Origin: Catajapyx aquilonaris
Taxonomy: Eukaryota
DNA length: 46,462 nucleotides
Direction of reading: 5' to 3'
Assembly: GCA_000934665.2 (NCBI GenBank)
Contig: JYFJ02003098.1
Span: forward strand, 1-46,462
The stretch's first letter is position 1. Each line of letters begins with the position of its first letter. The notes under the pieces were generated by a model, which was not told the origin of the DNA, did not search any database, and was given only the letters and a program-made list of their open reading frames with translations. The position numbers were made by a program, and so were the translations under genes. This document shows, in pieces, positions 11,691 to 45,189 of this stretch.

Positions 11691-11905
11691 GGAGCTGCAT
11701 AGCAGTGAAGTGGTTATCGCGGCAGCCTTCCCACCTATGAGGTCCCGAGTTCTATCCGCCGATCAGGCACTTTCCCGTGGAAAAAGTTTCAATCGGTTCT
11801 CTTCGTGTTTTCTTGGGGTTTGCCGTTTCCTTNNNNNTTCCCCCCCCCCCCCCGTCAAAATACATCAGCAACGCCAAGATTGGGAGCCACGGGTGCCGAA
11901 GTAGG
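11691..11905 (+). mobile_element. Degenerate tRNA-derived SINE
   Basis: TAGCAGTGAAGTGGTTATCGCG (A-box-like) followed by GAGTTCTATCC (B-box-like) at tRNA spacing. Contains an N gap. Confidence 0.45.
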
Positions 11906-16674: not shown

Positions 16675-16915
16675 GGGAGTCGGAGTGGCGCTGCGGTAAC
16701 GTTCGCGCCCACGAATGTAAGGATCCCGTGTTCGATCCCAGGCCCGGGCTTCCCCCCCCCNCCCCCCTCATCTCGTGCAGAGTTGCCTCGTCTCTGGCTT
16801 CGTCTCGGGTGGAATCTCCGACATACTAATCCATCCGGGGGAGTTCAGTCAGTTCACAAAATGTACGTTACAGATATTGCACTTGCACATCCCCTCCCAG
16901 TCCCTCGCTCGCGGT
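16675..16915 (+). mobile_element. tRNA-derived SINE
   Basis: GTGGCGCTGCGGTAACG (A box) and GTTCGATCCC (B box). Body shares ATTGCACTTGCAC with the SINE at 2740-2967. Confidence 0.6.
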
Positions 16916-25900: not shown

Positions 25901-28900
25901 CATGGAATCGCTTTAAGCCAGATAAAAGGGGTCGTTTCGGAAACACGGGGCCCCTCCCCCCGCTCGAAGCCCCCTTTTCAGGGGTAATGGAGGTGGTTGG
26001 AATCAAGAATGTTCGTGCCAAAGCATACGTGATAAAGATGATCCTGATCCTCTATTTTGCTCGACAACATCCATATTGAAAGCTTGTCAGGGCTAAGCAA
26101 CGTTTACGTGGAATCAGGTGCGAAACAACCGGCTTCTAAACTTATTGTTATGAACAATAATGCAGGCTGTAAAAGTGACACTAAATATTTCTTATTTAAT
26201 TACACAGGCTGTTCCCAAAGAGCTTAATACTAGGAAGAGTGGAAAAAACAGCTGGTAGCATAGCAACCGAGTCTCCAATCGACTGACCTGCCACCTGGCG
26301 AGTCGGTAGCCAAACTCGATACTGTATTGTACAATACGGTAGATCGAGGCAGTGCCGGAAATATGGCAATAAAAGCCCCAGAGGTTGGAAATAAGTCATA
26401 CATATGCCCGCCGATTTGTTTAAAAAATTCCCGCCGATTTAAAAAAAAATGAAGACAAAACAGGCGTATATAGGATAAATATCACATATTATATTACATG
26501 TTATTACACAACTTGTGTACACATTACACAACCTCTGTGTACACATATGACACAACTCATGTATACTGGTGCATATTGCACAACTTGCATACATATTGCA
26601 TATATTATTACACAGATGACACCTCAGGTACATAATATGATGTATGAACCCTAGACATGATTATTGTGGAGAACCACCTTCCATTTTCTGTTTGCATTTG
26701 TAGTATGTCCCACATGGCATAACTCCTTCACTTCATTAATTCTAAATCTAAGAAAGTAATGCACACGCATTTTCAGGTAATTCTGAAGAATAATCTTGGG
26801 AAGATTGCAGTTCAGTGGTTGTGGTTGTGGTCCCCATGAAATTTTTTTAGCTCACGCACTTTAATAGTATCAAGGATATACCTCTCAGCAGCTGAAACCA
26901 ACCCTTCAATGTGGATGTTGGATTGCAGGAAACGAAGCAGCAGGGCATTACAAGACTTTACAAAAGCAAACATATCTGCAGAGGGCACGAAAAATGATCC
27001 AAATTCACTCTCTGTCCTGCTACGAAGATAGTCATATACCTTTTCCTTCATAAAAATCTGGTGATCTTCCCTAGCTTCTGTGTCTTTTGACAGTAACACT
27101 GCACTACATAGTGCACATTTATGCATCCTTATAATTTTCCTGCATACCCACCCTGCTACATAAAATTCGGCATTTTCTTTGCACAAACTGGTGCATTTGT
27201 CTAGCTCTGTTTCCATTTCAATTTCGTCTGCAAGTGCCAGATTGGAGGAGTCATTGCAGAGTGGTGAATGAGAATCAGAATTACTTGTACTAGTACATGC
27301 AGCATTTGTTAACTCATCAGCTTCCAACAAAAATTTGCCCAAATCATCCTCACAGTTTTTCCCCAAACTAGTACAGTACATGTAAACAAGCTTGCTGCAG
27401 CTATTCTTTCCATAGAAAAGCGAAATTCAGACAGAGACGGATTGAATCTGAAACCCCCTCTACCTCGAATCTTAGCAAATAAGTTTTCAATGCAATCTTG
27501 ATTTACCTTTCTGGGGCACAAATACGTCACCTCACAGCTTGTTCTAAGATTATCCCACAACATGACAAGGCCATTTATAGATAGTTTGAAACCGTTAAGG
27601 CATGGTATGTATGTTTTTGTCTGGAATTTACAGTCATCCATTTCTCGAGCCAAGTCTTGGAGAAACTGCTTGTTCTTATTGTCATGACACCATGGCCTTC
27701 TGAATCCTTTCTTGTCCCCAAGTGATCCATTAAAACAATCAAAAGCCTTGTCCATTTTTAAGATCCACTGACTCGTTGCTTCTGCCCCTGGTAGTACATT
27801 AAACTTTGCCAAAGTGTGCCTTGCAACACCAACTGAATGACTGAAAACCTGAGAAGCATAGCACACCCTCATTTTTGTGAACTTTGTCAAGAACACGTGT
27901 TTGAATGTCAGCTTTGGGCACAGTCTTGTTTCTGAGGAGTCGAGATCATAGAGTCTCTTTATATACTTAAAAGAGACTACTTCCCCCTTCACCACTAGGT
28001 CATAATTCTTAAGATTATTTCTCATACATTTGAGTAGGTGAGGTGGATCATACATAAAATATGTTTTGTAGTTATTAAAAATGACATAAGGCTTATCGAC
28101 AGTCACTCCCATCCTTGTAAACATACCCCGATTATTAGGCCCTTGGTCACATACCACCACTTTCACTCTCAAACCTATTGACCCCAGTCTCTCCAGACAT
28201 TCCTCCACTATGTTCCTTAGTGACACGTCCGTGTTAGTGATAAGCTAGATGCGCCATCCTCCACCGCATAATAGCATAGTGGTTGCTTCCAACGGCCACA
28301 TATAGCTCTTACCATAACAACAAGAGCATGATTAGCGATGCTGCATTCCCTCTCACCATCTCTGTAATCCACAAACCCTTCCACTTTGTCAGTACCCGAA
28401 TCGTATGAAAGATCTGACTTTAGAGAAACCTCGTCAAAACAAAGCGACACTATGGTCTGCAACGGCTTCATCCTTTTCACTTTCATTTGTAAGGCCTGCA
28501 GCATGCTGTCAGAAAGACCTGGGGCCAACCTGTGAGGTTTCATCCAGGTTCGCAGTGTTCTCTCAGTAGGTAGACGGAAAAGTTTACGACACATGCGATA
28601 TGCACTGGGGCTGCTGTAGTACAAACTAAAGGCAAACTCCCTGTCGGATTTCGACCACCTGCTCCACTTTTTCCCCTTGCTTGCAAGCTTCAGCTGAGTT
28701 GCAATGAAAGCCCCTCCTGGTCCTCCAACCAAATTCTTACACTTCTCGATGGCATGAGCCATAGTGTCCGCTTGTGCAAGATCTCTTGCCAGTATCTTTA
28801 ACCGTTGCATTTGCTGGGAGGCACGGCTCAGTTTATTTTGCTGTGCCTTAATCTTCTTCCTTAACTTCGTCCTTGTGGGACTGACCTGGCGAAGACCTAT

Positions 28901-29020
28901 GGAGACAGATGAAAATCATTATTTTCAAAGTCTGCATCTATACCAACACCTCACATAAAGGTGTCAGCTCATCATCTGGTTATTCAGGCTCACAGCTACA
29001 CCATGCACCCTCACTCTTTG

Positions 29021-29254
29021 AAGGGTTGCCCCCGAATAATGTTGTAAGTGACATTGGTGACAGTTGTCTAGTTTTGGTTTCGCGGGTCCGGGAATTGGAA
29101 AAGATACATGTCCTGTGGTCATTTGGTCTGATATAATTGACAACATGAGTCAAAAAGTTTTGATTCATTTGTGCCTGTATCTTTTGTACCATTAATTCCA
29201 CTTTTCCTCAATTTGTCTGAAATGTCACTTACAACATTATTCGGGGCAGCCCTA
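29021..29254. mobile_element. MITE nested in the transposase linker region (hAT-like ends)
   Basis: About 34-bp TIR AGGG(T/C)TGCCCCGAATAATGTTGTAAGTGACATT. TSD not clearly preserved. Confidence 0.75.
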
Positions 29255-29369
29255 CATTTAGTGCTCATGATTCCCCTTTTATCTCCAAAGAAGTCTGGGT
29301 AATTTAAGGTGAAAATATCGCCATGGAATGTAACAGTAGGATCACATTGAAACATTCAGGTACCTGTAA

Positions 29370-30115
29370 TTCTTGGGCGTTTTCTTGAGGACATATCCTG
29401 GTCTTCACTCAACTGGGAATTTCCTGCCACACGCTTCACTGCAAGGAAAATTAAGTCTTACAGGTGAAGTACAGCTAACTTGTAAGTAGGACTGGGAAAA
29501 TACTCTAACTCTCAGTATGTATATTAGCTCGTTTAACTTAATGTAGATGCTCTGTAGACATAATTAATTATGAGAGCCTATACACCATAGACCTTTTAAT
29601 AAAATCAAGTACTTTCGGAAGCTTACAGGCAGTATGTGCCTATTTAGGTAAAGTGCTGGGCTGGAAATTTGGTTAGCTACCTGCACTGATTCGTGTTCCT
29701 GGAGTAGGCATCATCTGCACGTTTGGCATGGTCCCTGTAGTTCTTAAGCATTTTCTTGCTGGCATATCCTGGTCTTCACGTTCGACTTGGTGTTTCCTGC
29801 CGCACTCTTCACTGCAAGAAAAATTAAGTGCTATGGATGAAGTACAGCTAAGTATGAAAGGAAAAATATCGAAACTCACAGTATGTAGGCTATACAAGTA
29901 TTACCTTATATATAACTTAATGTGGATACTCAGTAGACATAATAATCAGAGGCTACATCAAAGACCTTTTAGACTATACTACATAGACTATCAAGTCCTT
30001 GACCTGGAAGCTTACAGGCAGTATGTGACTATTTTAGTAAGGTGAACTGGAAATTTGGGTATACCTGCATATGTTCGTGTTTCTGGAGTTGGCATCATCT
30101 GCACTCCTGGCATGG
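29370..30115 (-). repeat. Tandemly duplicated exon-intron unit (period about 375-390 bp) within the transposase gene
   Basis: VQMMPTP.TR..AG occurs twice. Donor ACTGCCT|GTAAGC at 30016 and 29627; acceptor TTGCAG|TGAAG at 29811 and 29438. Confidence 0.85.
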
Positions 30116-31028
30116 TTTCATTTGAAATACACGACTCGGTGTTGACACATACAAAGTCATTTGCACAAGTTATGCCTGATTGGGGATAAAGTTCCTTTCT
30201 GGTTGTGACAGGTCCTTCTGGCATGACCTCATTACCATCTGACATGGTCACATCTGAAAATAATGTTTATAATATATTATGTATTAGAACAAGACCAGAC
30301 ATAACCATCATAATTCCAAATTGCAACCTTCATTTTTTACTACTCAAGTTGCTAAATGGTATTTACATGTGAAGCACCCCCTTGGGCCCCTTCTCAGGGT
30401 TCTGAGCAACACTCTGAGTTAATCTACAGTGGCTAGTGATATACATTTCAGCCCCTAAATATTGCCCTCATTTTGTTATGTATTTTAATGCCATTATTCA
30501 GATAATATCCAGACTCGTAGCTGCTCACATAAAATTTCAGTTCCAATTGAAATATATTACATATTTACTTACTTTCTTTGTACGTTGCGGAGAAACTACA
30601 TGGAACAGCATTCTCTTTCAGCAGTTTCCTGGTACCACTCGAAAACTTGATTGCTTCGGGTGAGAAGTGTAGCTCACAGAGCCTGTAGCTTCGATAGGAA
30701 GCAGTGGTCATAGGCAGGTCATCCCTTCCCGCGAGCCGGCACCACTCTTTGAAGAGCTGTGGCTCCTTCGGGAATTTAAAGAATGTGATCCCCGCTCTGG
30801 TTCGCGAACAGCAGTAGCGGGCGGCACACAATAACTTGGTCATACCGACGAAGAAACTCGATCCGAGGACAGACACAGAGAACAGATTACTACACCTGTG
30901 TATGTGTTTAATGGAACGTGAACAGAGGTTGTTGACCCCAGCCACCCCGGCAACCAGCAACAAATTACCCGCTACAGGGTGGCAAGCTGCGTCGAATATC
31001 AGTTTCGAGTCCAAAATTAGTGCCTTAA

Positions 31029-31979
31029 GGTAGTTCTTGCGCTTGGAAACGGGGGGAAGGGGGAGGGGTGTTGAGCCTATGTTTATACATGGGCGAGCTG
31101 GCCAATACCAACTTCTGCGATTGTAAGACATTTCTGCTAGTATTTCTCTGAAACAGAGTTTTGAGTACGCGTTTCGCGTCGGATACGTTACGTGAACATT
31201 TATTTGAGGGATAATAATTCCCTCGTGCACTTTTGTCCCGGAGAAGAGCAGAAATATGGCTGTCCCAAATACCGGAAAAAGTGCGGGAAATCCGGCAACG
31301 TTGCACACGTTGGCAACCCTTATCAACAAAGTATCGATGTTTTGATGTATCGATATTTCCCCCCAGCGATATATCGAGTACTCGATAGTTAGCCCAACTA
31401 TCGATATTACAGTATATCGATATTTTAATAAAATTATTGTTATTGTTATTGTTATTAAAATATATTATTAAAATTATTATTATTGCCCCTTTTAACTCTT
31501 GCACATCCCTATATCGTAAAACGAGCCCTAGATATTAATTTTATACTCTTAAAACGAGCTCAGCGCGATGCCTGGGACTTTCAAAACGCGCGCCCCCTAC
31601 TATATTGTTGTAGCTGCGTTGCCAAGTCATCGCTGAGAGCCGTGACTACCCCGCAGTTTTGAAGGGATTGTGAAAGAACGGGCCTGGTGACGTATTGGTT
31701 TCTTGTGACAAAATAATTTGGTACGAATGTGGCTACACAGTGATTAGTTTTTTGTGATCGTGGCACCATTTTCACGGGATCTACGGGGGGAAATATCGGT
31801 TCCTGGATGCCCCTCTCCATAAGCCGCCATGTATAAGACCTCAAGTTCAGAGATGAATATCTCCGAAAGTATTTAGTAGAAGTCCTTTATATTTTACAGG
31901 CTCATTAGTCACATAACAGGGAACAACTGGTGTAATTTTAAATTCTCTGCCACCATTTCGTCTTAGCGCAAGAACTACC
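31029..31979. mobile_element. Kolobok-like non-autonomous element
   Basis: TTAA|GGTAGTTCTTGCGCT...AGCGCAAGAACTACC|TTAA (15-bp TIR, TTAA TSD, GG termini). The empty site is visible in P copy 2 at 37469-37472. Confidence 0.85.
31190..31511. mobile_element. Fragments of hAT-type MITE ends nested in the Kolobok-like element
   Basis: TTGGCAACCCT (~31310-31320) and GCACATCCCTA (31501-31511) resemble hAT MITE 3' termini. ATCGATA repeats at 31332-31421. Partner ends not found. Confidence 0.45.
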
Positions 31980-32468
31980 TTAACCGCATACGACCTCATA
32001 TTGGTCAGTTTTTAGATTTATAACTCTTAATTGTGTGCCTCTTGATATTAAATCAACACAGTTTATTGAAATTCCTCTCGACAGCACTCGACGGTGCCGC
32101 CTAGTGGCGCCGTGTAGTGGTCGGTAGCCAAACACGTTGACTAAACAACTGGCCAAAAAGTGGCGACGCTTGGAAACCGTTTTTTCCACTCTTCCTAGTA
32201 TTAAGCTCTTTGGACCGGCCCTGTAAGCACATACGCACTATTTAAATTTAATTACTGGTAATTTTATTCTTGCAGACAAAGTGTAAATAACAGTGTAGTA
32301 AATTTTTCTCTTTCAAAAATAGATGCCCCATTTTGACAATTATGGGACATAATCGTCATCCACACTGTCGGTGTCACTGTTGCTAACAGGGTTGACACCA
32401 TTGTTGATCATCTCTTCAGTCTCCGATTCCTCCGAATCCTCAACATCCTCACCACTCAACTCTGACGG

Positions 32469-33434
32469 CTAATACAGAGACTCATCATCTTCAATCTCCT
32501 CGTCATTCTCATCATCATCAGTTTCATCATCATCAGTCTCCTCAGTTTCATCTTCTGAGTCTGTGATACCCCTGAAGTAAAATGGATTCTGAGCTTCCAT
32601 CACATTTTCCTGTGGAACACGCTCCCGCAGGGTCATGGCCAGAGGTGGAATAGGCTTTCGGACACTCTGACGTTTGTTGGTGACCCTTCCAGGGTTCTTC
32701 ACTTCTGCAGTCTTCTTCACTGCCTCCTTAACAGGAGCCTTCTTCCTACCTCCAGATGGTGCATGTTTCGGCGTCTGACCTCTAACCTTCAGCCTAGCTT
32801 GAAGCCTGCGAGCATGTCCAGACATGACCCGTTTGTCGTTCAGCATGTCAAACGCCCCACTCCTGCACAGCTCCTCATACAACGGCTGCAAATCTTATAA
32901 TTAGTGTCTGAACAGACAAGTTGCCAACAATAATTACCCCTTCAGGACCAGTAGGGACCACGAAGTATTCCGGGTGGGCTACTGCCTTCCGACGGTACGC
33001 CTCCACACTATTGGCAGGAAGTCGGTCCCATCTCTGTATCGATATGGCAATCCATTCGTCAGGGTTGCCCTTCTTGAACTCGGACGAAATAGTCTAACAA
33101 TGAACATGTTGCCATAAGAACAATCCTAACAATGTAACAATGGATCGAACGATTTTTGAACACTTACAGGCCTGACATCGGTGTAGTACAGGACGAACTC
33201 TGGTGTGATCGTATGACCCTTATGACAATTGGTCTCCCACACTGCCCTCTGCCTCTCAACCTTCTCTATGTTGACGTCAGCTTTCCTCTCCCAGTAAGTC
33301 CTCACATCCGGGTCCATATTCTTCCAACTGTTATTGGCCATTTTAGCCCCATCCACATCCTTCTCTCCGGTTCGAAGGGCACGAATGTCCAGCCTGTCCT
33401 TCAGCACAGCTTCGTACAAGGTAAATCCGTCCAT
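32469..33434 (-). CDS. Divergent tandem HMG-box protein with basic and acidic C-terminal regions (3 predicted exons)
   Basis: Exons 33434-33168, 33093-32938 and 32885-32469 are joined by GT-AG phase-0 introns of 74 and 52 nt. Box A: FTLY...KMANNSWKNMDPDVRTYWERKA. Box B spans intron 1: FVLYYTDVRP/TISSEFKKGNPDEWIAISIQRWDRLPANSVEAYRRKA. D/E-rich tail. Confidence 0.75.
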
Positions 33435-33590
33435 CTTATGTCCTCACAGAATTGGTGTACAGAAAGTAGAGCGTTACAAATACACGTCTAAACTTGACTG
33501 ATGCGAATGCCTGAATGAACTGTCAACAAACTAGTTGGCTTGACACTACTTGACACTGATTGACCGGTTCACCTGGCAACCACCAAATTG

Positions 33591-36179
33591 TTACGGTAAA
33601 AATGGATATTTTCTCGGCCCATACATGCAATGTACAATACGCTCATAAGTAAAGACCGCGAGAGCTAAGCATATCCCACAGCTAAACACTATAAAGTGAC
33701 CTTGCAACCTGTCTAGGGTAAACACCACCCTTCCTTTGTCACTCTCAACAAAATGGTATTTTCTTCTAGCCTGAGCAGCATCTAGCAACCTTCTGTGTTC
33801 TAGCAACCTCTCATTCTTCACATTAAGTCCGATGCTGTAGAATATATGATTCCAATAGTTCCAATGGGGAAGTAGCCTTCATTTTGGAAACTACATAATA
33901 AATTCGTCCATATTTTTTGGATTTTTTTGGCATATTCCGTTTTAAGATATCAGTTTCAGTTCCGGAGTAATTGGGGTTTTTATGTAGGGAAATGGTGACG
34001 TCACTGTTTCCCTAGAAAATGTTGACGTCACGCGAAGTGAAATGAACGCAAAAATGGTGTTATAGAACGCGCCCCGTAATTGTTGTAAAATGCTTCGCTG
34101 TTGTTAGCAACCGTCCCATTCCGTGAGCAAGATAGCGGCCGGGGCGCGTATTTATTCCAGGCCGTTCCAGTCGCTTCTGGGCTGACAGTGGTGCCAAATG
34201 GTAGGAATTATCTGTCACCCGAATTCGGCACATGAAGGCCCCCTTTCTCCACCTCGATGGCCTACAGCCGCCTTGCGAATGCTTTCCGTCGTGTCTGCGG
34301 TTAATTCAAAGTCAAATTCCTCATATCTCGCAGTCAACCAGGCATTTCAGTGTACCCTTTCGATTGGCACCACCCGGCTGCCCCGTTTTTCCCGCCAATT
34401 TTGAAGGCACTTTTAAATGTGCCGTAATTTATCCAGTAATGTCATTTTGATGCAACAAAGGGATGGAATGTATGTTTACAGGCATGGGCTAGCTAGTTAT
34501 GAACAAACATCCCAAATCCCAGACCAAGGCTACTTCACCATTGTCATAGTAGATAGTCCCTTTTAGAAGAACATCAGAGTAATAAATTAAAACAAAGTAA
34601 TCATTAGATTTGAAAACTTTGCCCTGGCAATACGGATCTAACTTCTTCATAGCACGTTTTAGTGTCAACGGGGTTTCCATGCAAACACTGTCTTCAGCAG
34701 TGGGGACATTTCTGAAGCACTGCTTCCAGGTTTCTACTGTTTCTATTCTCTTGTACGTGCTCTCGTAAATGTCATGCTCTTTGAACTCCATGGGAGCAAT
34801 CAGCACTAGATATAACTCTCGGGTCATTTTTATAGCAAACTCAGAATTTGCCAATTCTTTGAATTTTTTCGGGATCTCCTCCAATGGAGGGGTAGTTAGG
34901 AAAGTGTAGAGTTTGGCGCAATACACTGTTGTAATGATCATAGAGAAAGTATATCCAAGTCATGGCCACAACCTTTGAGGCCGATGGACCAGGAAATGGT
35001 GCGCTTTCTTCTAAGGTAACTTTTATAAGGTAATTTAGGTGAGCAAATAACGATCCAGGTTGTCCATGACTGTCCTGGAAAAACATTCCATGATGAAGTT
35101 TAGCAATAATCACTAATGCTACACAGGACGCGAACAATGAAGCAACAATCATGCACCAAGTACCTGGAGTGAACGGATAAAGAGTGATGAGTGCGCTGAT
35201 GTCTGGTCGTGGTGTCCGTGCCAAGAAGGTCACTTTGCTGTTGTGATACGGCGCCATTAGGTCACCCACTGCATTGATCATATCAATTACTGGAAAACCT
35301 ATGAAAAATTCAGTTTTCCGTCGAGTACGTCTCGTACAACCAGACCTAGCGCTGTCAAGTTGTCTAATAAGCCAGTCATGTCAAATTCAGATTGATGCCA
35401 GGTGAAGTTGAGTGCTTTTCCGATAAAACACAACGGATTTTCTACTCTAGAAGTGTTACCGCAATTTTTTGAACTATCTTCATCGCTATATAGAGATTTC
35501 AATAACTTTCCATGCAGATTATTGGAAGTGTCCTTGAAAAGTTGTCGACACGAAATGTGAGAAATGTACGACGGTATTGCCACTGATTCGACAACTGGGT
35601 TCCCATCGTCACAAAATAAGCACACAGAATGCACTAGTAAGAAACCGTTTTGTTGAGAGTTGATAGACACCTTGTACTTGATTGTAGACAATGGCTTGTC
35701 AAGGAGATAATTTGAATCTGCATTGTCTCTAATCCAAAACACAAACTTGTCTCTTGCTTTTTTCACTACCAGTCCATCTGGTCCATAAAATCCCCAAAAT
35801 TGGAGGAGCATACCACAATCAGATGTGTGGCACACTTGGCCATCTTATCTCTAGGATCCAGTTCTAGACGCGATTGTGGAGTGGCGTCATCTGAAGAATC
35901 GCAGTTCCAAGTGCTGACAGAATCCGATTTGGAAACAAGCAGAGGTCGTCCAATAGATGACATCTTACTCATGAAATCCATCAGCTCTTCAGGGAAATGA
36001 TCACCCAAGTCATGATGGATCAGAACAGGACACTCCAGCACTGGCTCAGCGTTCTTCAGCAGGTTCCACATGAATTGAGTTTCAATGTACCCATGTGAAT
36101 TTCCTATTTTAATTTGTACATGGCTGGACTTTGTTGTCAAAAATAATTTCACTATGAAGAGAATATGATAGAGCAACAT
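33591..36179 (-). pseudogene. Divergent ionotropic receptor (variant iGluR chemoreceptor), intronless and disrupted
   Basis: Signal-peptide-like N-terminus, then VCLFCDDG, LFKD..NLHG, ALNFT, YPFTPGTW (M1), VTLEE (pore), VYCAKLYTFLTTP (M3), KGTIYY..GL and TLDRLQGHF..G..LAVFTYE (M4). Frameshifts near 35790, 35300 and 34925, and an insertion at 33866-34539. Confidence 0.85.
33866..34539. mobile_element. ISL2EU/PIF-Harbinger-like non-autonomous element inserted in the IR gene
   Basis: AT|GGGGAAGTAGCCTT...AAGGCTACTTCACC|AT. Removing the element and one AT restores the IR frame. Weak THAP-like remnant inside (NAWLTA...IIPTIW, minus strand). Confidence 0.75.
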
Positions 36180-37780
36180 TTTTCTTTATCCTTGCACTTT
36201 TACTCTACATGAAGAGTATTTTGATATCGTATAATCTGCACAAACGCGAACTCCGGGCAATACAAACATCTGAACCTCGTCAAAGAGTCAGCCCAAATGA
36301 CTGTTTACCCCCATTCCAGTTTCTGACTTGCGAAACTGCAAAGGCACACTACAATATTAATCCGAACTCGAGTTTCGAAAGTGCCCTGACCTTTCTGCTC
36401 ACCCGATCTCGCTTGGCCAAATTCGCAGATAATTGCATGTGTCGCAAGCCGACATCAGATGCGTAGTGACACCAAATACACAAAATAATGTTTATTTTAA
36501 ACAGATATACAGTATAAGTGAGAAGGTAGAAGGTAGAAGATATAAGTATACAGTATAAGGATCGATCACGGTATCCTTGAACAAGTCACCTCCAGTGAAG
36601 TAATTAGTACTGTTGTTCTCTCAACACTCACGTGACATACTCAGGGAATTTCCACACTCAGTTATGGTTTCGACATAGGGCGAATTAATATTGCAATCAG
36701 AAGACCCTAATTGTAGGATAAGATCGTCCCTGATGTGTTATGTTTCAAAGGCTGATTGTTCCAAGCCACCTGAGCCAAGTCAAAGAGCTTAATACTAGGA
36801 AGATTGGAAAAAACAGTCTGGTAGCATAGCAACCGTGTCTCCAATCGACTGACCTGCCACCTGGCGAGTCGGTAACCAAACTCGATACTGTATTGTACAA
36901 TACGGTAGATCGGGGCAGTGCCGGAAATATGGCAATAAAAGCCCCAGAGGTTGGAAATAAGCTATAAGCACTCGTATACTCCCGTTGGTGTAAAAATTGA
37001 CGACAAAACACGATGTAGAAGACCTGTGAATAAAATACCATCACGAAAAGCAAATTGTTTGCCAGAAGTTTATTGCCACTACAATAATCCCACACTCTGC
37101 GCTATACAATACACACCACGGTAGGCTACTGTACACACTGGTCATGATGCTGAACATGATGGTCATGACAGGAAGATATACCCCCGCTGCTATGTCCATC
37201 TTGTGGCGGGACGGGCTTGTTCTTCTACCGTGAACTCGAGAGCCGTGGAGGGTCCTTTGGTAATGAAAAGAATGCGATCCGTGACCCCGTGCGCGAACAG
37301 CAGTAGTAGCACTCGGCACCCAACCCCCGACCGTCTACGCCCCACTATGCCGGCCTTGGAACTTGTTCTATTTCAAAATTCGAACGTGATTTCTAAGCAA
37401 CGAGGTGATTATTTGGATTGTTAGGTGCAGCTGCGTCGAATATCAGTTTCGAGTCCAAAATTAGTGCCTTAACCGCATACGACCTCATATTGGTCAGTTT
37501 TTAGATTTATAACTCTTAATTATGTGCCTCTTGATATTAAATCAACACAGTTTATTGAAATTCCTCTCGACAGCACTCGACGGTGCCGCCTAGTGGCGCC
37601 GCGTAGTGGTCGGTAGCCAAACACGTTGACTAAACAACTAGAAGCGGCTCGAAGCCGTGGTGCTCCTGAGGGCAGGGGAGCCTTGATCCTTGCCCGCGCG
37701 CCACCAACGGTCGTTTCCGCAACTACCCGCACCCGCGAGGAAGCATAAGAATCCCCATCGGAATAAGCAATTCCAGCGAT

Positions 37781-37860
37781 GGCAGCCGTAGTGTATTGGT
37801 AAGCGCGCTGGCCTATAGATCGGAAGGCTGCGGGTTCGCGTCCCGCTCAGGGTTCTTTTT
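37781..37860 (+). other. tRNA-like (SINE head) segment inside the MITE
   Basis: GTAGTGTATTGGTAAGCGCG (A box) ... GGGTTCGCGTCCC (B-box-like), followed by a T-run. Confidence 0.55.
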
Positions 37861-38009
37861 TTTCCCCCTCTTTTTTTCGTCGTCTTTTCTTACGTGAAGA
37901 TAGGGCTGTATCCGCAACGAGTGAAGGTTAGGTTTGGTTAGGTTGGGTTAGTACATCGTTAGTACATCGTACCCCTATCCCCTGCCCACATCACATCAAG
38001 CAGCGGTAC

Positions 38010-38110
38010 GTAGGGCTGTATACGCTGACGATAGGCCTGTATCCGCTGAAGATAGGCCTGTATCCGCTGAAGATAGGCCTGTATCCGCTGAAGATAGGGC
38101 TGTATCCGCA
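38010..38110 (+). repeat. 21-bp minisatellite (GATAGGCCTGTATCCGCTGAA), about 5 units
   Basis: Seen directly; it produces the RIQAYLQ repeat in the minus-strand ORF. Confidence 0.9.
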
Positions 38111-38421
38111 ACGAGTGAAGGTTAGGTTTGGTTAGGTTGGGTTGGTACATCGTATTCCTACCCCCTGCCCACATCAAGCAGAAAAAATTAATATTCCAGC
38201 TCTGAACAGCGCCTTCCTCGCGGGGTTGGTGGCGCGCGGCAAGGATTAAGGCTCCCCTGCCCTCAGGAGTACCACGGCTTCGAGCCGCCTGTAAACAACT
38301 GGCCAAAAAGTGGCGACGCTTGGAAACCGTTTTTTCCACTCTTCCTAGTATTAAGCTCTTTGGCTGCTCCTAATAGGATACTATGAGACAAATATTATGG
38401 CAGATATATATTTGTTTCATA

Positions 38422-38552
38422 CAAGGTGACCCTAAAGTCTGGACACAGTCATAGGTAATAATATTACATTGTTGGTTGCCAGGATAACAATATTGTCAAC
38501 CGACAATATTATAATATCATTACTTATGTGTCCAGACTTTTGGGTCACCCTG
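38422..38552. mobile_element. Small Tc1/mariner-type MITE
   Basis: TA|CAAGGTGACCCTAAAGTCTGGACACA...TGTGTCCAGACTTTTGGGTCACCCTG|TA. Confidence 0.85.
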
Positions 38553-40901
38553 TAGAAGCCTGTTACATGTAACTGCAGGATGCAAATACAACCTAGCTGG
38601 AACCCAATTCCATATATCCTTTATGGTGAGAATATATTGCACCGCATCTTGTTATAACATACTTAACAGCATGCACTTTCATTATCTGTATTAGTTAGAG
38701 CAGTCTGCTGAATACAGTCAGTTCCGGCTGCAGCTTGACGAGTTAAGTGTGGTTAAAGTGCCACCACGAAACTAAAAATTATAATGAAATTATTCGCTAA
38801 TGGAAATAAGCCTTATTTTTTGGTTAGATAGGCGGATATTTTTGGCTTTCCCTAAGTCCACATGATGGACTGTGATGAAAGGCTCACGAAAACATTCGGA
38901 GTTGGAATTGGATCTCATTACCAACAGTGATGAGTGTAAAAAATGATGATGAGGTATTGGCTGCTCTCCAACAAGTCATGCTGATCAAATTGAAGTGCTG
39001 CGCAAGTTTTAAATAGGTAAGACCTGAAAGAGAGAGAGAAAAAAACAGGAAACATTAACCTACATTTGGGTTGGTAAAGTGAGTATCTCGGAGTATCGGA
39101 TTTTTGCGTGACATCATTTACGCATATTTGCTGACCACTTTGGATTTAAATATATTTTGTTGTTAACGTTGTATGACTGGGCCACTGTTATTTTAAAATA
39201 AACACACAACTATCTTTTATCTGCACATCGTTTATTTTATTACATTTTGCCAATATGCCTATATTTGGGACTTAATTTCCATAACAACTTGAAAATGCAT
39301 GTTACATGAAGATGCGTTGAGGTCAAAGCCTTGGTCAAAGCCTTTTCGCGTACTCGTACTTCTGCAACCCTGGAAAATTAACGTTGTTAAGAGTTTCTGT
39401 GGCTCTATCTAAAAGTTAGGTGCGACACCTTTGAGAAGACGAGACACACTCTCTGCTCGCTCGCCATCTCTTCTTCCCAAAAAATTCTTGTCTCTACAAG
39501 ACTGGTAATCCGATTGACGAAGGTCACACTCGGCCCTGAGAGAGCGAAGAATTCTCAATCCATTTCTCATTGAGGCAGCGAATTGCCACTTCTTGTAGGC
39601 TTGATAGCTGCTCTTGTTCCTGGGCGTGCAGCTCGACAGATTGCTCCGGCGGTAGCCTTCCAAATATCTCCCCAATCATCTTCCAGCTTTCCTTCTCTCC
39701 AAGTGGAGAAGGAGAGGGAGCCAGCAAGCATTCTCCCTGCTAGATTTATGTACAGTCCGGCTGGTCATTGCCTTTTGAACTTATCGCTGCCAGAATCTGT
39801 AATGGGGGGGGGGGGGGGACNACTCGTTTCGACGTGAACTTGGAAATGTGCATGGTATTGGTGGAGTTGTTCTGTGCTTTTCTTCGTAAAACCAGTGTTG
39901 CCTTTATTGAATAGCTCGTAAATAAATATGCGGCATATGCAGCATATGTATGCAGTTCTACCCTGTCTCTGATATAGTGATATCAGGAAATATCTCACTC
40001 GCGATTTCAACAAAATGGCAATAGATTACGAAACATTAATTCATAACTGTGTGTAGAAGTGCATTACCGAGAGGTCCGAGACGGAAAAATGGTGATTCAC
40101 TGAAATCAGAATTTGCTAATTCATTATTATTATCAATTTATCATGAGCCATATTTTAAAATATTTCGCTGAGTATGAGTATTGTACAGGTAAGTATTTAA
40201 AAATATCCTTAACCATTTATCTACAAGCACTGTACAAGCTATAAATTTATATTTGTCGTGAATATTTATGCACGTACTGTACATGTAAATGATCATGATA
40301 CTTTAAGGGCTACATTAGGGTAAAATTTTGAAGCCTTTTAATTTCTATAAATATTTCTTAAAAAGCATAAATTACATGGCTGTAATGAAACTTGGCAGAG
40401 CACAAAAATGTGCATTACAAAAGACCACTTACACATAGTGGATTAATTTTGTCTCTTTTTAAAATACGCTCATAAGCTTGCTTTTTGTTCATTATGACTG
40501 CTGCTAATGCCACTGACAGGATATTCGACTTCACAAAAAACCGTTAATACGGACGGATCAAAAGTTATGCTATTATTTTGAACGGGTCCCTCCCTGATTA
40601 GCTTATTTGAGAAGAGAATCCCACAGATAAATGCATTCAATAAAAGCGTGAGGTTGTCAGCTCCAATAACGTGTCATTAATGCCAGACCAATAAAATTAT
40701 ATTCCTTTGTTTCGTTAAGGTAAATGAAACGGATATCAACAGTGCATGATTTTTTTGATATTGTCAAATATAGCCAGAAAAATGTATTGTGAATCCCCAA
40801 TCTGACAAACTGACCTATAGATAACTCTCTTGTCTTTCTGATGCGCAGGATTTGCAAGGAACTCGCAAAAGGATTGTAGAATATTCACATGAAGTAATCC
40901 G

Positions 40902-41138
40902 GGCTGTACTTGCTCTTACTGGCGTGCGGGAGGCGGGAGGGTAGTAGTCGGTGGGGGCAGCGGGCTGTGTCGCTAAGATAGGTCTGTATCCGCAAGGAAG
41001 GAAGGTTAGGTTAGGTTAGGTTAGGTTGGTACAGCATATCCCTTCTAAAACCCCAAATATCAATCTGCCTTTGCCACATAGCCAAGCTGCCCCCAGCCAC
41101 CACTCCCCCTGCCGCGTCCCGCACGCCAGTAAGGATCC
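40902..41138. mobile_element. MITE with 8-bp TSD and an internal (GGTTA)n tract
   Basis: GTAATCCG at 40894-40901 and 41139-41146. Inverted arms CTTACTGGCGTGCGGGA..GGGGGCAGC / GCTGCCCCC..TCCCGCACGCCAGTAAG; GG...CC ends. Confidence 0.7.
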
Positions 41139-42880: not shown

Positions 42881-45189
42881 TGGAAGAAGTGGCGGGGAAA
42901 ACTGGACTGAAAAGCTGGGAAAATAATAGTTTATTCTGATAACACCACCGTATAATGAATATGCCTTTTTTACTTAATATAACTGAAACATACAAATTAC
43001 CACATTATTTTACTTAACACACTAATAAGGCTGGTGATTGTTGTATTGTATAAATTCCCGTAGAAAAACTACAAGGATATATTATGAGAATTTATTTGAG
43101 AAATGACACTACATTGAGATTAATATTCTTTTGTGGCGCCCTTTCTTTACAATAAGTACATGTGAGAGAGAGCGTGAGTATCGAGGTAGTACAGTGGTCT
43201 AAGGGTTAAGACGCTCTCGTAACCTGAAGGTTGAAGGATCGAATCGAGGGAGGAAAGAGTGGGAGGGGAGAAAAATTTTTTGGAAATTTTTAAGACACCT
43301 GCCTAATGGGAGGGGGTGGTCACTTTTTTCGAAGAAAAAAGTCGAAAAAATAAAAAGTCAATTAAATGATCAAGTGGCTTCGCTTGTGTTGTCCATCCCG
43401 GCAGCCCCCACCCTACGCACCCCATAGTCCCTACATTTGTCTTATACCAGGGAGTTCCATTCTCAAACCTATCACCCCCCAAAAATTTGCTCCCAGAAAT
43501 TTAACTATAGTTCCAATAAAATCACCAGCACATGCAAATGATTCGGCACAATTTTTAGGGCATTTTCAATGGTTTGTTGCCGGCTGACCTTTGACCTGAA
43601 AAGCCCTAGTATTAGGCTTTTGGTCTGTTGCCAGGCCCTTCCTCGGTCTCCATCTGTCGGAGCTTTCGTAATGAGACTGTACAGAGCACAGTACTTAGAT
43701 ATACAGTAGCTATATCTCTCGATGTGAGGTAGTATTCCCCTAGCCAAACGTAGTGGCAGGTATCATTATGTATGAATGTGACGTAGGCGAGTGGTCACCT
43801 CCTTGGCGTCATCAGGACGGACATGCGGCATCACTGTTTCGTGGAATATATTGCTCTATGGATTATTAAAACAATAAATTCCAACCCGCTTCTGCTGTGC
43901 GTGGAGATGCGCATATCGTCGATGCGGTTTTAGATAGGCAAATTTTGGTGTAGGCTTGGTCGCCTTCCTGTCTCTTAGACCTTACATATTCCCCCCTTTC
44001 CACCCCCGCCCCGCTACCCACAAGGACAGGCGGACTGCTACATTTGGCTAGTAGGCTAGGGGCATACTACCTCACATCGAGAGATATACTGTATAATTAT
44101 CTAAGTACTGTGCTCTGTACAGTCTCATTACGAAAGCTCCGACAGATGGAGACCGAGGAAGGGCCTGGCAACAGACCAAAAACCTAATACTAGGGCCTTT
44201 CAGGTCAAAGGTCAGCCGGCAACAAACCATTGAAAATGCCCTAAAAATTGTGCCGAATCATTTGCATGTGCTGGTGATTTTATTGGAACTATAGTTAAAT
44301 TTCTGGGAGCAAATTTTTGGGGGGTGATAGGTTTGAGAATGGAACTCCCTGGTATAAGACAAATGTAGGGACTATGGGGTGCGTAGGGTGGGGGCTGCCG
44401 GGATGGACAACACAAGCGAAGCCACTTGATCATTTAATTGACTTCCTATTTTTTGACTTTTTTCTTCGAAAAAAGTGACCACCCCCTCCCATTAGGCAGG
44501 TGTCTTAAAAATTTCCACAATTTTTTTCTCCCCTCCCCCTCTTTCCTCCCTCTCTCCACCCCTCCCCACCCCCTCTTCGCTGCTCCTCCTCCCCCTCTGA
44601 AGAAGTGTTGGGGAAACTGCGAAGGAACAGTCGCCATCTTGCCCAGAGATGTCTGCTGCAAAAAAAAATTTCTGACTCTCAACCGTGGAGACACGGGATT
44701 TGAACCCACATCTCCCGATTGAGAGTCTGATGCGTTACCACACAGCCATGCTATGCTGCAACGAGAGTGTGAGTGTTGGAAGGGTCTAGCCTATTTACCA
44801 GATGCACGTCAAAGAGAAATAAATGTGAAATGAGAGATGAAGTAACAGCGGGAAAGGTTCATAGCGATAAAAAGAAACGACGGCTTCCTTTCAGGATTCG
44901 ATCCTTCAACCTTCAGGTTACGAAGAGAGAGTCTTAACCACTAGACCACTGCGCTACTTCGATACTGACACTCTCTCCAGCATGTACTTATTGTAAAGAA
45001 AGGGGGCCACAAAATTCAACAATCACTTGATTTGGGTAACATTTTTTAGCCTTATTAGTGTGTTAAGTAAAAGAATGTGATAATTTGTGTTTCAGTTATA
45101 TTAAGTAAAAAAGGCACATTCATTATACAGTATGTTATCTGAAACCATTATTTTCGCGGCTTTTCCAGTATTCCCCGCCACTTCTTCCA
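42881..45189. mobile_element. Large foldback element / inverted duplication
   Basis: Left arm ~42881-43745 is the reverse complement of the right arm ~44055-45189, which has extra sequence at ~44560-44880. Identical 73-aa ORFs at 43366-43587(+) and 44212-44433(-). Spacer about 310 bp; no TSD seen. Confidence 0.9.
44620..44752 (-). mobile_element. tRNA-derived SINE fragment in the right foldback arm
   Basis: Minus strand AGCATGGCTGTGTGGTAACGC...GGGTTCAAATCCCG (A and B boxes). Confidence 0.65.

What the first reader, a model, noticed from the sequence alone, without database searches (positions are those of the whole stretch)
26208..38370. Natural composite P-element transposon (12.1 kb) carrying an ionotropic receptor and an HMG-box gene
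Seen: four copies of one 34-bp TIR define two directly oriented P elements (26216-32212 and 36781-38362). Neither element has its own TSD: copy 1 is flanked by GCTGTTCC/GACCGGCC and copy 2 by AGCCAAGT/GCTGCTCC. The two outermost flanks match at 7/8. Known: P-superfamily elements make about 8-bp TSDs, and bacterial composite transposons move cargo between paired IS copies. Inference: the transposase used the outer ends and moved the intervening 4.6 kb (IR plus HMG gene) as one unit. This would be a route for chemoreceptor gene duplication and dispersal by a eukaryotic DNA transposon.
Basis: partly seen in the sequence, partly recalled or inferred. Interest (0 to 1): 0.92.

Follow-up and report, generated by a model that had tools for sequence, protein, structure and literature searches.

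The report
Two P elements bracketing two genes
Two jumping genes of the P-element type sit either side of 4.6 kb holding two host-like genes, and only the outermost flanks look like one insertion scar, so the 12-kb block probably landed as a single unit, a process known in maize and flies, though no second copy or empty site could be examined.

Summary
One 34-nt terminal repeat occurs four times (0 expected by chance). It bounds a 5,997-bp P element (26216-32212) and a 1,582-bp deleted relative (36781-38362) in direct orientation, either side of 4,568 bp. Neither element has its own 8-bp duplication (3/8 and 0/8). The two outer flanks match 7/8 in exact register (chance 5.6e-4 per comparison).

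Copy 1 is a true P-superfamily element: THAP, HTH, split RNase H and GTP-binding insertion domains, and a match to the Drosophila P transposase structure. Its reading frame has two breaks.

The cargo holds a very divergent ionotropic-receptor-like gene with one frameshift and a weakly supported HMG-box-like gene.

The best reading is insertion of the 12.1-kb block as one unit. Outer-end transposition, reversed-ends composite insertion and gap-repair copying all give this same structure, and misassembly is not excluded.

None of the decisive tests could be run.

This is a plausible first natural P-type example of a known phenomenon, resting on one 7/8 match.

The parts
26208..26215 (.). Left outer flank GCTGTTCC, putative target-site duplication copy 1
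   Evidence: Read directly. It matches the right outer flank at 7/8 in register.
26216..32212 (-). P-element copy 1, 5,997 bp, with perfect 34-nt TIRs (26216-26249, 32179-32212). The transposase gene lies on the minus strand, about 30843 to 26812.
   Evidence: TIRs. THAP E 7.6e-16, Tnp_P_element HTH 2.7e-9, RNaseH_N 5.9e-26, GTP-binding insertion domain 4.5e-19, RNaseH_C 3.9e-6. 6p5a_A E 2.3e-19 and 1e-5. Gene layout and two frame breaks.
28224..28252 (-). First reading-frame break in the copy 1 transposase (no GT-AG intron of 30 nt or more can bridge it)
   Evidence: 0 in-frame links; sequence.
27358..27401 (-). Second reading-frame break in the copy 1 transposase, at a G4A5 homopolymer stretch
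   Evidence: 0 in-frame links; sequence.
32213..36780 (.). Cargo, 4,568 bp, bounded by the inner flanks GACCGGCC (left) and AGCCAAGT (right)
   Evidence: No similarity to any other part of the window.
32469..33434 (-). HMG-box-like gene (two HMG-like segments plus an acidic tail), with an AATAAA about 200 nt past the stop
   Evidence: ORFs and sequence. Pfam HMG_box E 0.11, 13.4 bits against a cut-off of 25.4. Atlas 0.90 to HMG_box clusters. Fold search inconclusive.
33591..36179 (-). Divergent ionotropic (glutamate-type) receptor-like gene with a signal-peptide-like start, M1-pore-M3 and M4 segments. A one-base frame break lies at 34954 in the M3 region.
   Evidence: phmmer gave 4 hits, 3 of them Lig_chan-like. 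Profile A1 hits NMDA/kainate receptor chains at E about 2e-12. Atlas. Frame analysis.
36781..38362 (-). P-element copy 2, 1,582 bp, an internally deleted non-autonomous relative. Left TIR has 1 mismatch; right TIR is perfect.
   Evidence: Shared blocks with copy 1: 181 nt at 97%, 44 nt at 100%, 173 nt at 99%, 71 nt at 100%. No transposase similarity.
37640..38291 (.). Foreign 652-bp TIR element nested in copy 2, with a perfect 9-bp duplication TAAACAACT
   Evidence: (I1). Copy 1 has the uninterrupted site.
38363..38370 (.). Right outer flank GCTGCTCC, putative target-site duplication copy 2
   Evidence: Read directly; 7/8 with the left outer flank.

Best explanation
The 12,147-bp block (copy 1, cargo, copy 2) entered the site GCTGYTCC as one unit. 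A P transposase paired the left end of copy 1 with the right end of copy 2, which are one end of each kind because the elements are in direct orientation. It cut the whole block from a donor locus where the two elements had inserted separately, with duplications GACCGGCC and AGCCAAGT. It then pasted the block here with an 8-bp staggered cut. One of the 16 duplicated bases has since changed or was miscalled. Shown here: the four ends, their orientation, the P-family identity of copy 1, the absence of per-element duplications and the 7/8 outer match. Inferred: the donor locus, the use of the outer ends, the timing and the source of transposase.
For: Four TIR copies, 0 expected by chance. The elements are in direct orientation, with left ends alike and right ends alike. 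Per-element flanks match only 3/8 and 0/8, while the outer flanks match 7/8 in exact register against a chance of 5.6e-4 per comparison. Copy 1 has every P-transposase domain and aligns to the Drosophila P transposase with D, D and E kept in the FDE, SDLG and NQD..E columns. The cargo holds two apparently complete genes, whereas 125 flank ORFs of 66 aa or more gave no Pfam hit. No paralogue of the cargo genes lies elsewhere in the window. Precedent exists. Ac/Ds macrotransposons excise leaving a modified 8-bp footprint, reinsert, and can carry up to 100 kb (passages of PMC9910405 and PMC3260210). Foldback-flanked Ising TE and P-based constructs with 100-kb cargo are described in a passage of PMC6431247.
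Against: The whole case is one 7/8 match, and the duplication is imperfect although three of the four TIRs are identical. A nested element 70 nt from the right end has a perfect 9-bp duplication. No second copy, donor site or empty site was seen: no genome is held; the scan's notes found nothing; metagenome and viral collections gave 0 hits; no donor footprint lies in the window. The TSD length and target preference of this P family are unknown, because these are its only two copies to hand. Copy 1's transposase has two frame breaks, so it may not supply the enzyme now.
Confidence: 0.4

Rival explanations
1. The block did arrive as a unit, but by another two-element route. Route (a) is reversed-ends transposition into unreplicated DNA followed by aborted re-replication. 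This yields a 'composite insertion' of two elements flanking a fusion of their former outside flanks, bordered by an 8-bp duplication. Route (b) is gap repair: a P element already at GCTGYTCC excised, and synthesis-dependent repair copied P, cargo and P from an ectopic template.
For: Route (a) is documented for Ac/fAc, with products bordered by competent 5' and 3' ends and 8-bp duplications (passages of PMC4270019). Hybrid-element and reversed-ends events are established for P and relatives (passages of PMC2775673). Route (b) follows from established knowledge of P-induced gap repair (recalled, not read here). It would let the duplication be older than the cargo, which fits the single mismatch.
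Against: Nothing in the window separates these routes from outer-end transposition. No fusion junction can be recognised inside the cargo without the donor sequence. Re-replication products have been shown only for hAT elements in maize.
Confidence: 0.22
2. Assembly artefact. In the animal a single P element sits at GCTGYTCC. Elsewhere the cargo lies between two other P copies, each with its own duplication. The assembler threaded the cargo through the shared repeat.
For: The elements share identical stretches at their ends (71 and 44 nt at 100%, 173 nt at 99%). The window has short N runs at 11832-11837, 16760-16761 and 39820-39821. Three coding frames are broken by small indels with no in-frame stop, one at a homopolymer. 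This suggests a draft assembly with errors. The only runs found date from 2014 and come from one sample.
Against: No N lies inside 26208-38370. The two left ends differ at 5 of 181 positions and the two copies differ grossly in structure, so they are resolved copies and not one collapsed consensus. A random mis-join would need both cargo sides to be attached to the two halves of the same insertion site.
Confidence: 0.2
3. The cargo is native here. Two P elements inserted independently, both lost their duplications, and the outer 7/8 match is coincidence.
For: P elements cluster locally and favour hotspots (passages of PMC2577343). The duplication is imperfect.
Against: This reading needs two separate losses of duplications beside ends that are otherwise intact, plus a chance event of 5.6e-4. 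The exchanged-duplication pattern expected from ectopic recombination, as in Galileo (PMC2775673), requires inverted elements and reverse-complement flanks. Neither is seen here.
Confidence: 0.05

Closest known systems
Ac/Ds macrotransposons of maize (Huang and Dooner 2008, seen only as a citation; passages of PMC9910405, PMC3260210, PMC4270019)
   Same: Two elements of one cut-and-paste family in direct orientation move together with the DNA between them. An 8-bp duplication flanks the outer ends only. Cargo sizes run from about 10 to 100 kb.
   Different: Those are hAT superfamily elements in a plant, and their excision and reinsertion were observed genetically. This is a P-superfamily pair in an arthropod-like genome, with whole genes as cargo, and nothing was observed beyond one static copy.
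Composite insertions from reversed-ends transposition with re-replication (PMC4270019, passages)
   Same: The end product is identical: element, then former flanking DNA, then element, inside an 8-bp duplication, with the structure of a macrotransposon.
   Different: The cargo there is a fusion of two formerly separate flanks, often accompanied by a linked duplication. Whether this cargo is such a fusion cannot be told.
Ising's TE of Drosophila melanogaster (foldback elements flanking host segments; passage of PMC6431247)
   Same: It is a natural animal composite transposon that carries host genes between two copies of one DNA transposon.
   Different: Its ends are foldback elements and its cargo spans hundreds of kb. 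Here the ends are P-type and the cargo is 4.6 kb.
Bacterial composite transposons (two IS copies framing a cargo, e.g. Tn5, Tn10; general statement in PMC6431247, names recalled)
   Same: The logic is the same: the transposase uses the outermost ends of two flanking copies.
   Different: IS ends are equivalent, so either orientation works. P ends are of two kinds, so direct orientation is needed (recalled from Drosophila work, not tested here).
Engineered extended P elements (Ring et al. 2000, seen only in a passage and the reference list of PMC6431247)
   Same: They show that P transposase can move very large genomic inserts placed between P ends.
   Different: That is a laboratory construct, not a natural event.
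Galileo (P superfamily) elements with exchanged duplications at Drosophila buzzatii inversion breakpoints (PMC2775673, passages)
   Same: Both are P-superfamily copies that lack their own duplications, and both are read through the pattern of flank sharing.
   Different: There the elements are inverted and chimeric, and the flanks are exchanged as reverse complements (an inversion by ectopic recombination). Here the elements are direct and the outer flanks match directly.

Membership tests
P superfamily DNA transposon (copy 1) | N-terminal THAP zinc-finger DNA-binding domain | tested here: met
   PF05485 E 7.6e-16, 59.1 bits against a cut-off of 23.9.
P superfamily DNA transposon (copy 1) | P-type HTH, and an RNase H-like catalytic domain interrupted by a GTP-binding insertion domain | tested here: met
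   PF12017, PF21787, PF21788 and PF21789 all score above their cut-offs. 6p5a_A E 2.3e-19 over residues 285-559 and E 1e-5 over residues 138-253.
P superfamily DNA transposon (copy 1) | Catalytic acidic triad | tested here: met
   D, D and E stand in the columns aligned to FDE, SDLG and NQD..E of 6p5a. That these columns are the catalytic residues is recalled, not given by a tool.
P superfamily DNA transposon (copy 1) | Terminal inverted repeats of about 30 nt | tested here: met
   34-35 nt, 100% complementary.
P superfamily DNA transposon (copies 1 and 2) | 7-8-bp target-site duplication around each element | tested here: not met
   3/8 for copy 1 and 0/8 for copy 2. Only the outer pair matches (7/8). 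This failure is the finding itself.
Autonomous element (copy 1) | Uninterrupted transposase reading frame | tested here: not met
   Two frame changes cannot be bridged by a GT-AG intron of 30 nt or more. One lies at a homopolymer, so an assembly error is possible.
Composite transposon / macrotransposon | Two copies of one family bracket the cargo, with the outer ends forming a competent pair | tested here: met
   Direct orientation: the outer ends are the left end of copy 1 and the right end of copy 2, both with perfect TIRs.
Composite transposon / macrotransposon | A target-site duplication flanks the outer ends only | tested here: inconclusive
   7/8 and not 8/8; chance 5.6e-4. The inner flanks are unrelated (2/8).
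Composite transposon / macrotransposon | Evidence of movement: a donor locus, further copies with other duplications, or an empty site | not testable with these tools
   No genome is held. There were 0 hits in the other collections and notes.
Ionotropic glutamate receptor / IR family (cargo gene 1) | Pfam Lig_chan above the gathering score | tested here: not met
   15.8 and 11.8 bits against a cut-off of 30.8.
Ionotropic glutamate receptor / IR family (cargo gene 1) | Profile-level homology to solved iGluR channel regions (end of S1, M1, pore, M3) | tested here: met
   Profile A1 (window ORF plus 3 relatives) hits 239 PDB sequences at E up to 1. All 60 best listed are NMDA, kainate or delta receptor chains, the best at 2.3e-12, and they are aligned to residues of about 460-680. 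The profile leans on the three relatives.
HMG-box protein (cargo gene 2) | HMG_box domain | tested here: inconclusive
   Pfam 13.4 bits against a cut-off of 25.4. Atlas 0.90 to HMG_box clusters. The AF2 model has pLDDT 64. The fold search gave 0 matches at E up to 0.001, with HMG domains only among rows at E 1.9-8.3.

The most novel reading that the evidence does not exclude
This arthropod-like genome holds an active or recently active P family that repeatedly moves whole chemoreceptor genes as composite transposons. Dispersed, divergent IR-like genes would then owe part of their spread to P-mediated macrotransposition. That would be a eukaryotic counterpart of IS-flanked cargo movement acting on a sensory gene family.
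Probability: 0.08. Interest if true: 0.75.

Novelty: new member of a known kind. Interest (0 to 1): 0.42.

Why it matters
If real, this would be a natural case of a P-superfamily pair moving complete host genes. It would extend macrotransposition, documented mainly for hAT elements in maize and foldback elements in flies, to another superfamily and to an arthropod-like genome. It would also give a concrete DNA-level, intron-preserving way to disperse single receptor genes away from tandem arrays. As it stands it is one static copy whose key prediction is untested. My literature searches listed no natural P-type composite carrying host genes. Those searches cover open-access text only.

Tried and rejected
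Whole-genome search: no genome is held.

Reads: four runs of one sample and one study hold 0.68-0.72 of the cargo's sampled words. This shows only that the cargo is in the reads of what is probably the source sample. No junction, empty-site or depth test was therefore possible, and I did not resend.

Collection scans: exact scans for the TIR gave 0 hits in metagenome contigs and 0 in viral contigs. A scan for a cargo 33-mer in metagenome contigs also gave 0.

Scan notes: searches by place and by sequence for the cargo, copy 2 and copy 1 matched 0 windows. A search by words gave 0.

Protein database: two cargo ORFs gave no hit at all, not even themselves, so no paralogue count could be made. 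The transposase's best relatives are at most 49% identical, so no same-species copies were found.

Within the window: there was no donor footprint GACCGGCC...AGCCAAGT, no paralogous empty site and no cargo paralogue.

Flank similarities rejected: the inverted similarity of copy 1's two flanks beyond the TIR (68 nt at 82%) is marginal once the TIR is removed (p 0.03 uncorrected among 12 comparisons). I treated it as chance.

Fold test of the HMG-like ORF: low-confidence model with no significant match.

tRNA scan of the region: none found.

Rejected idea: an inversion by ectopic recombination, as in Galileo. The orientation and the flank pattern do not fit.

Papers not held: PMC9339288, PMC2553603 and PMC310958.
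Full report
OBSERVATION

The repeat finder and a pattern search confirm one 34-nt terminal inverted repeat in four places. These are 26216-26249 (+), 32179-32212 (-), 36781-36814 (+, one mismatch) and 38329-38362 (-). None is expected by chance in 100 shuffles. A shorter probe adds only one 3-mismatch site, inside an unrelated foldback-like repeat.

The repeats bound copy 1 (26216-32212, 5,997 bp) and copy 2 (36781-38362, 1,582 bp). Copy 2 shares four blocks with copy 1, in the same order and orientation:
- the first 181 nt (97%);
- 44 nt (100%);
- 173 nt (99%);
- the last 71 nt (100%).

The two elements are therefore direct repeats of one family, and copy 2 is an internal-deletion derivative. 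They are separated by 4,568 bp (32213-36780).

The 8-nt flanks read from the sequence are GCTGTTCC | copy 1 | GACCGGCC ... AGCCAAGT | copy 2 | GCTGCTCC. In register, copy 1's own flanks agree at 3/8 and copy 2's at 0/8. The inner pair agrees at 2/8 and the outer pair at 7/8. Two random 8-mers of this window agree at 7 or more positions with frequency 5.6e-4. Shifting the element boundary by one base destroys the match (read).

WHAT THE ELEMENTS ARE

Copy 1 encodes a complete set of P-transposase domains on the minus strand:
- THAP (E 7.6e-16);
- the P-type HTH (2.7e-9);
- RNase H N-terminal half (5.9e-26);
- GTP-binding insertion domain (4.5e-19);
- RNase H C-terminal part (3.9e-6).

Its two largest ORFs align to the solved Drosophila P transposase 6p5a (E 2.3e-19 and 1e-5). 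An acidic residue is kept in each of the FDE, SDLG and NQD..E columns. That these columns are the catalytic triad is my recollection.

In a 5.8-billion-protein database the closest relatives are at most 49% identical. The only named ones come from a spider, a beetle and two moths (34 hits among 504 candidates). Earlier notes of this scan call the genome arthropod-like.

The gene runs from about 30843 to 26812 with a 1.7-kb first intron. Two frame changes (28224-28252 and 27358-27401) cannot be bridged by a GT-AG intron of 30 nt or more. The second lies at a G4A5 run. As assembled, copy 1 is therefore not an intact autonomous element.

Copy 2 has no transposase similarity. It carries a nested 652-bp TIR element (37640-38291) with a perfect 9-bp duplication, and copy 1 shows the uninterrupted site.

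WHAT THE CARGO IS

All long ORFs of the cargo lie on the minus strand.

Gene 1 (36179 to 33591) starts with a signal-peptide-like segment and contains M1-, pore-, M3- and M4-like stretches.
- Pfam Lig_chan stays below threshold (15.8 and 11.8 bits against 30.8).
- Two word-seeded database searches found nothing.
- An exhaustive phmmer search found 4 proteins at E up to 0.001. Three carry sub-threshold Lig_chan matches; the fourth is a bacterial repeat protein and is spurious.
- A profile of the window ORF plus those three hits 239 PDB sequences at E up to 1. All 60 best listed are NMDA, kainate or delta receptor chains, the best at 2.3e-12, over the S1-end to M3 region.
- The protein atlas points to arthropod clusters, one with Lig_chan on 18% of members.

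I accept gene 1 as a very divergent iGluR/IR-like gene. Its frame is broken by a single extra base at 34954 inside M3, where no intron can link the two frames. A 47-nt intron (35345-35299) and an intron of about 630-670 nt are plausible.

Gene 2 (33434 to 32469) has two HMG-like segments and an acidic tail. Support is weak: Pfam E 0.11, atlas 0.90 to HMG_box clusters, an AlphaFold model of pLDDT 64 and no significant fold match.

Both genes appear to lie wholly inside the cargo. An AATAAA stands about 200 nt after the stop of gene 2, and about 600 nt lie upstream of gene 1. Outside the block, 125 ORFs of 66 aa or more gave no Pfam hit. Of the 135 flank ORFs of that size, I left out 10 that overlap N runs. 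No paralogue of the cargo ORFs occurs in the window.

MECHANISM

Independent insertions cannot explain two intact elements that both lack duplications together with an outer match of this quality. I give that reading 0.05.

The pattern expected from ectopic recombination between P-superfamily copies is inverted, chimeric elements with reverse-complement exchanged flanks, as for Galileo (PMC2775673, passages). That pattern is not seen here.

The simplest account is that the 12.1-kb block inserted as one unit into GCTGYTCC. Three routes give exactly this product.
- Macrotransposition. The outer ends of two linked elements in direct orientation are used together. This is shown for Ac/Ds in maize, including excision footprints, reinsertion and 100-kb cargo (passages of PMC9910405 and PMC3260210).
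- Reversed-ends transposition with aborted re-replication. This builds 'composite insertions' bordered by competent ends and an 8-bp duplication (PMC4270019, passages).
- Gap repair. After excision of a P element already at this site, repair copies element, cargo and element from an ectopic template (established knowledge of P-induced gap repair, recalled).

Direct orientation matters, because the outer ends are then one of each kind. That P needs one end of each kind is recalled from Drosophila work.

I cannot separate the three routes without the donor. I put 0.40 on outer-end transposition and 0.22 on the other two together.

The single T/C difference in the duplication needs either a later substitution or a base error. 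A nearby nested element has a perfect duplication, which counts mildly against a very old event and mildly against the reading as a whole.

ARTEFACT

A repeat-mediated misassembly would mimic the structure, with the cargo contig threaded into a single P insertion. Three observations argue for caution:
- short N runs elsewhere in the window;
- three small frame breaks without any in-frame stop, one of them at a homopolymer;
- the only reads found come from one 2014 sample.

Three observations argue against it:
- no N lies inside the block;
- the two copies are clearly resolved as different sequences;
- both joins would have to fall on the two halves of one insertion site.

I give this reading 0.20.

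WHAT COULD NOT BE DONE

No genome is held. The TIR and a cargo 33-mer have no exact match in metagenome or viral contigs. The scan's notes hold no look-alike of the cargo or of either element. The window holds no donor footprint or paralogous empty site. Every prediction that would turn the structure into evidence of movement therefore remains open.

COMPARISON AND NOVELTY

Composite movement by paired DNA transposons is known in three settings I could document:
- Ac/Ds macrotransposons;
- foldback-flanked Ising TE;
- engineered 100-kb P constructs (the last two from a passage of PMC6431247).

D. melanogaster P duplicates the central 8 bp of a 14-bp palindromic target, ATRGTCCGGACWAT (PMC2577343, passages). 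Copy 1's inner flank GACCGGCC matches that core at 6/8. This fits its being a genuine old P target, but the family is different.

Six literature searches listed no natural P-type composite with host genes. They cover open-access text only.

I class this as a new member of a known kind, of moderate interest, with one 7/8 match as its only direct support.

Noticed in passing
window 37640-38291: A 652-bp TIR element is nested in copy 2 with a perfect 9-bp duplication TAAACAACT. It holds a 21-nt tandem array (38011-38109, 4.7 copies) and internal direct repeats. Fragments about 85-88% alike lie at 40962-41043.
   Followed up: partly
window 38420-38554: A 135-bp MITE-like unit with 28-nt inverted ends (93%) and TA on both sides lies 57 nt right of the block. 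It looks Tc1/mariner (Stowaway-like).
   Followed up: no
window 42881-45189: A foldback-like structure with long inverted arms (87-96% alike, up to 504 nt per block). It contains the only other weak TIR-like match (43605-43623, 3 mismatches), which lies inside an arm and not at an end.
   Followed up: no
window 29359-30116: A tandem duplication of about 373-389 nt (73-90% alike) lies inside the first intron of the copy 1 transposase gene.
   Followed up: no
window 34954; 28224-28252; 27358-27401: Three coding frames (one receptor, two transposase) are broken by small indels, yet no in-frame stop occurs in about 4 kb of coding sequence. One break lies at a G4A5 run. This could be assembly indel error and not decay.
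   Followed up: partly
window 32213-36780 (runs X1-X4): Each of four runs of only about 256 million letters holds about 70% of the cargo's sampled 31-mers in its contigs. Either the genome is small or the cargo is multi-copy.
   Followed up: no
window 32213-32220: Copy 1's inner flank GACCGGCC is near-palindromic and matches the D. melanogaster P target core GTCCGGAC at 6/8. The outer flank GCTGYTCC matches it at only 2/8.
   Followed up: no
window 36741-36754 vs 26206-26215: AGGCTGATTGTTCC lies 18 nt left of copy 2 and resembles AGGCTGTTCC at the left outer junction. The local alignment gives p about 0.08, so it is probably chance.
   Followed up: partly
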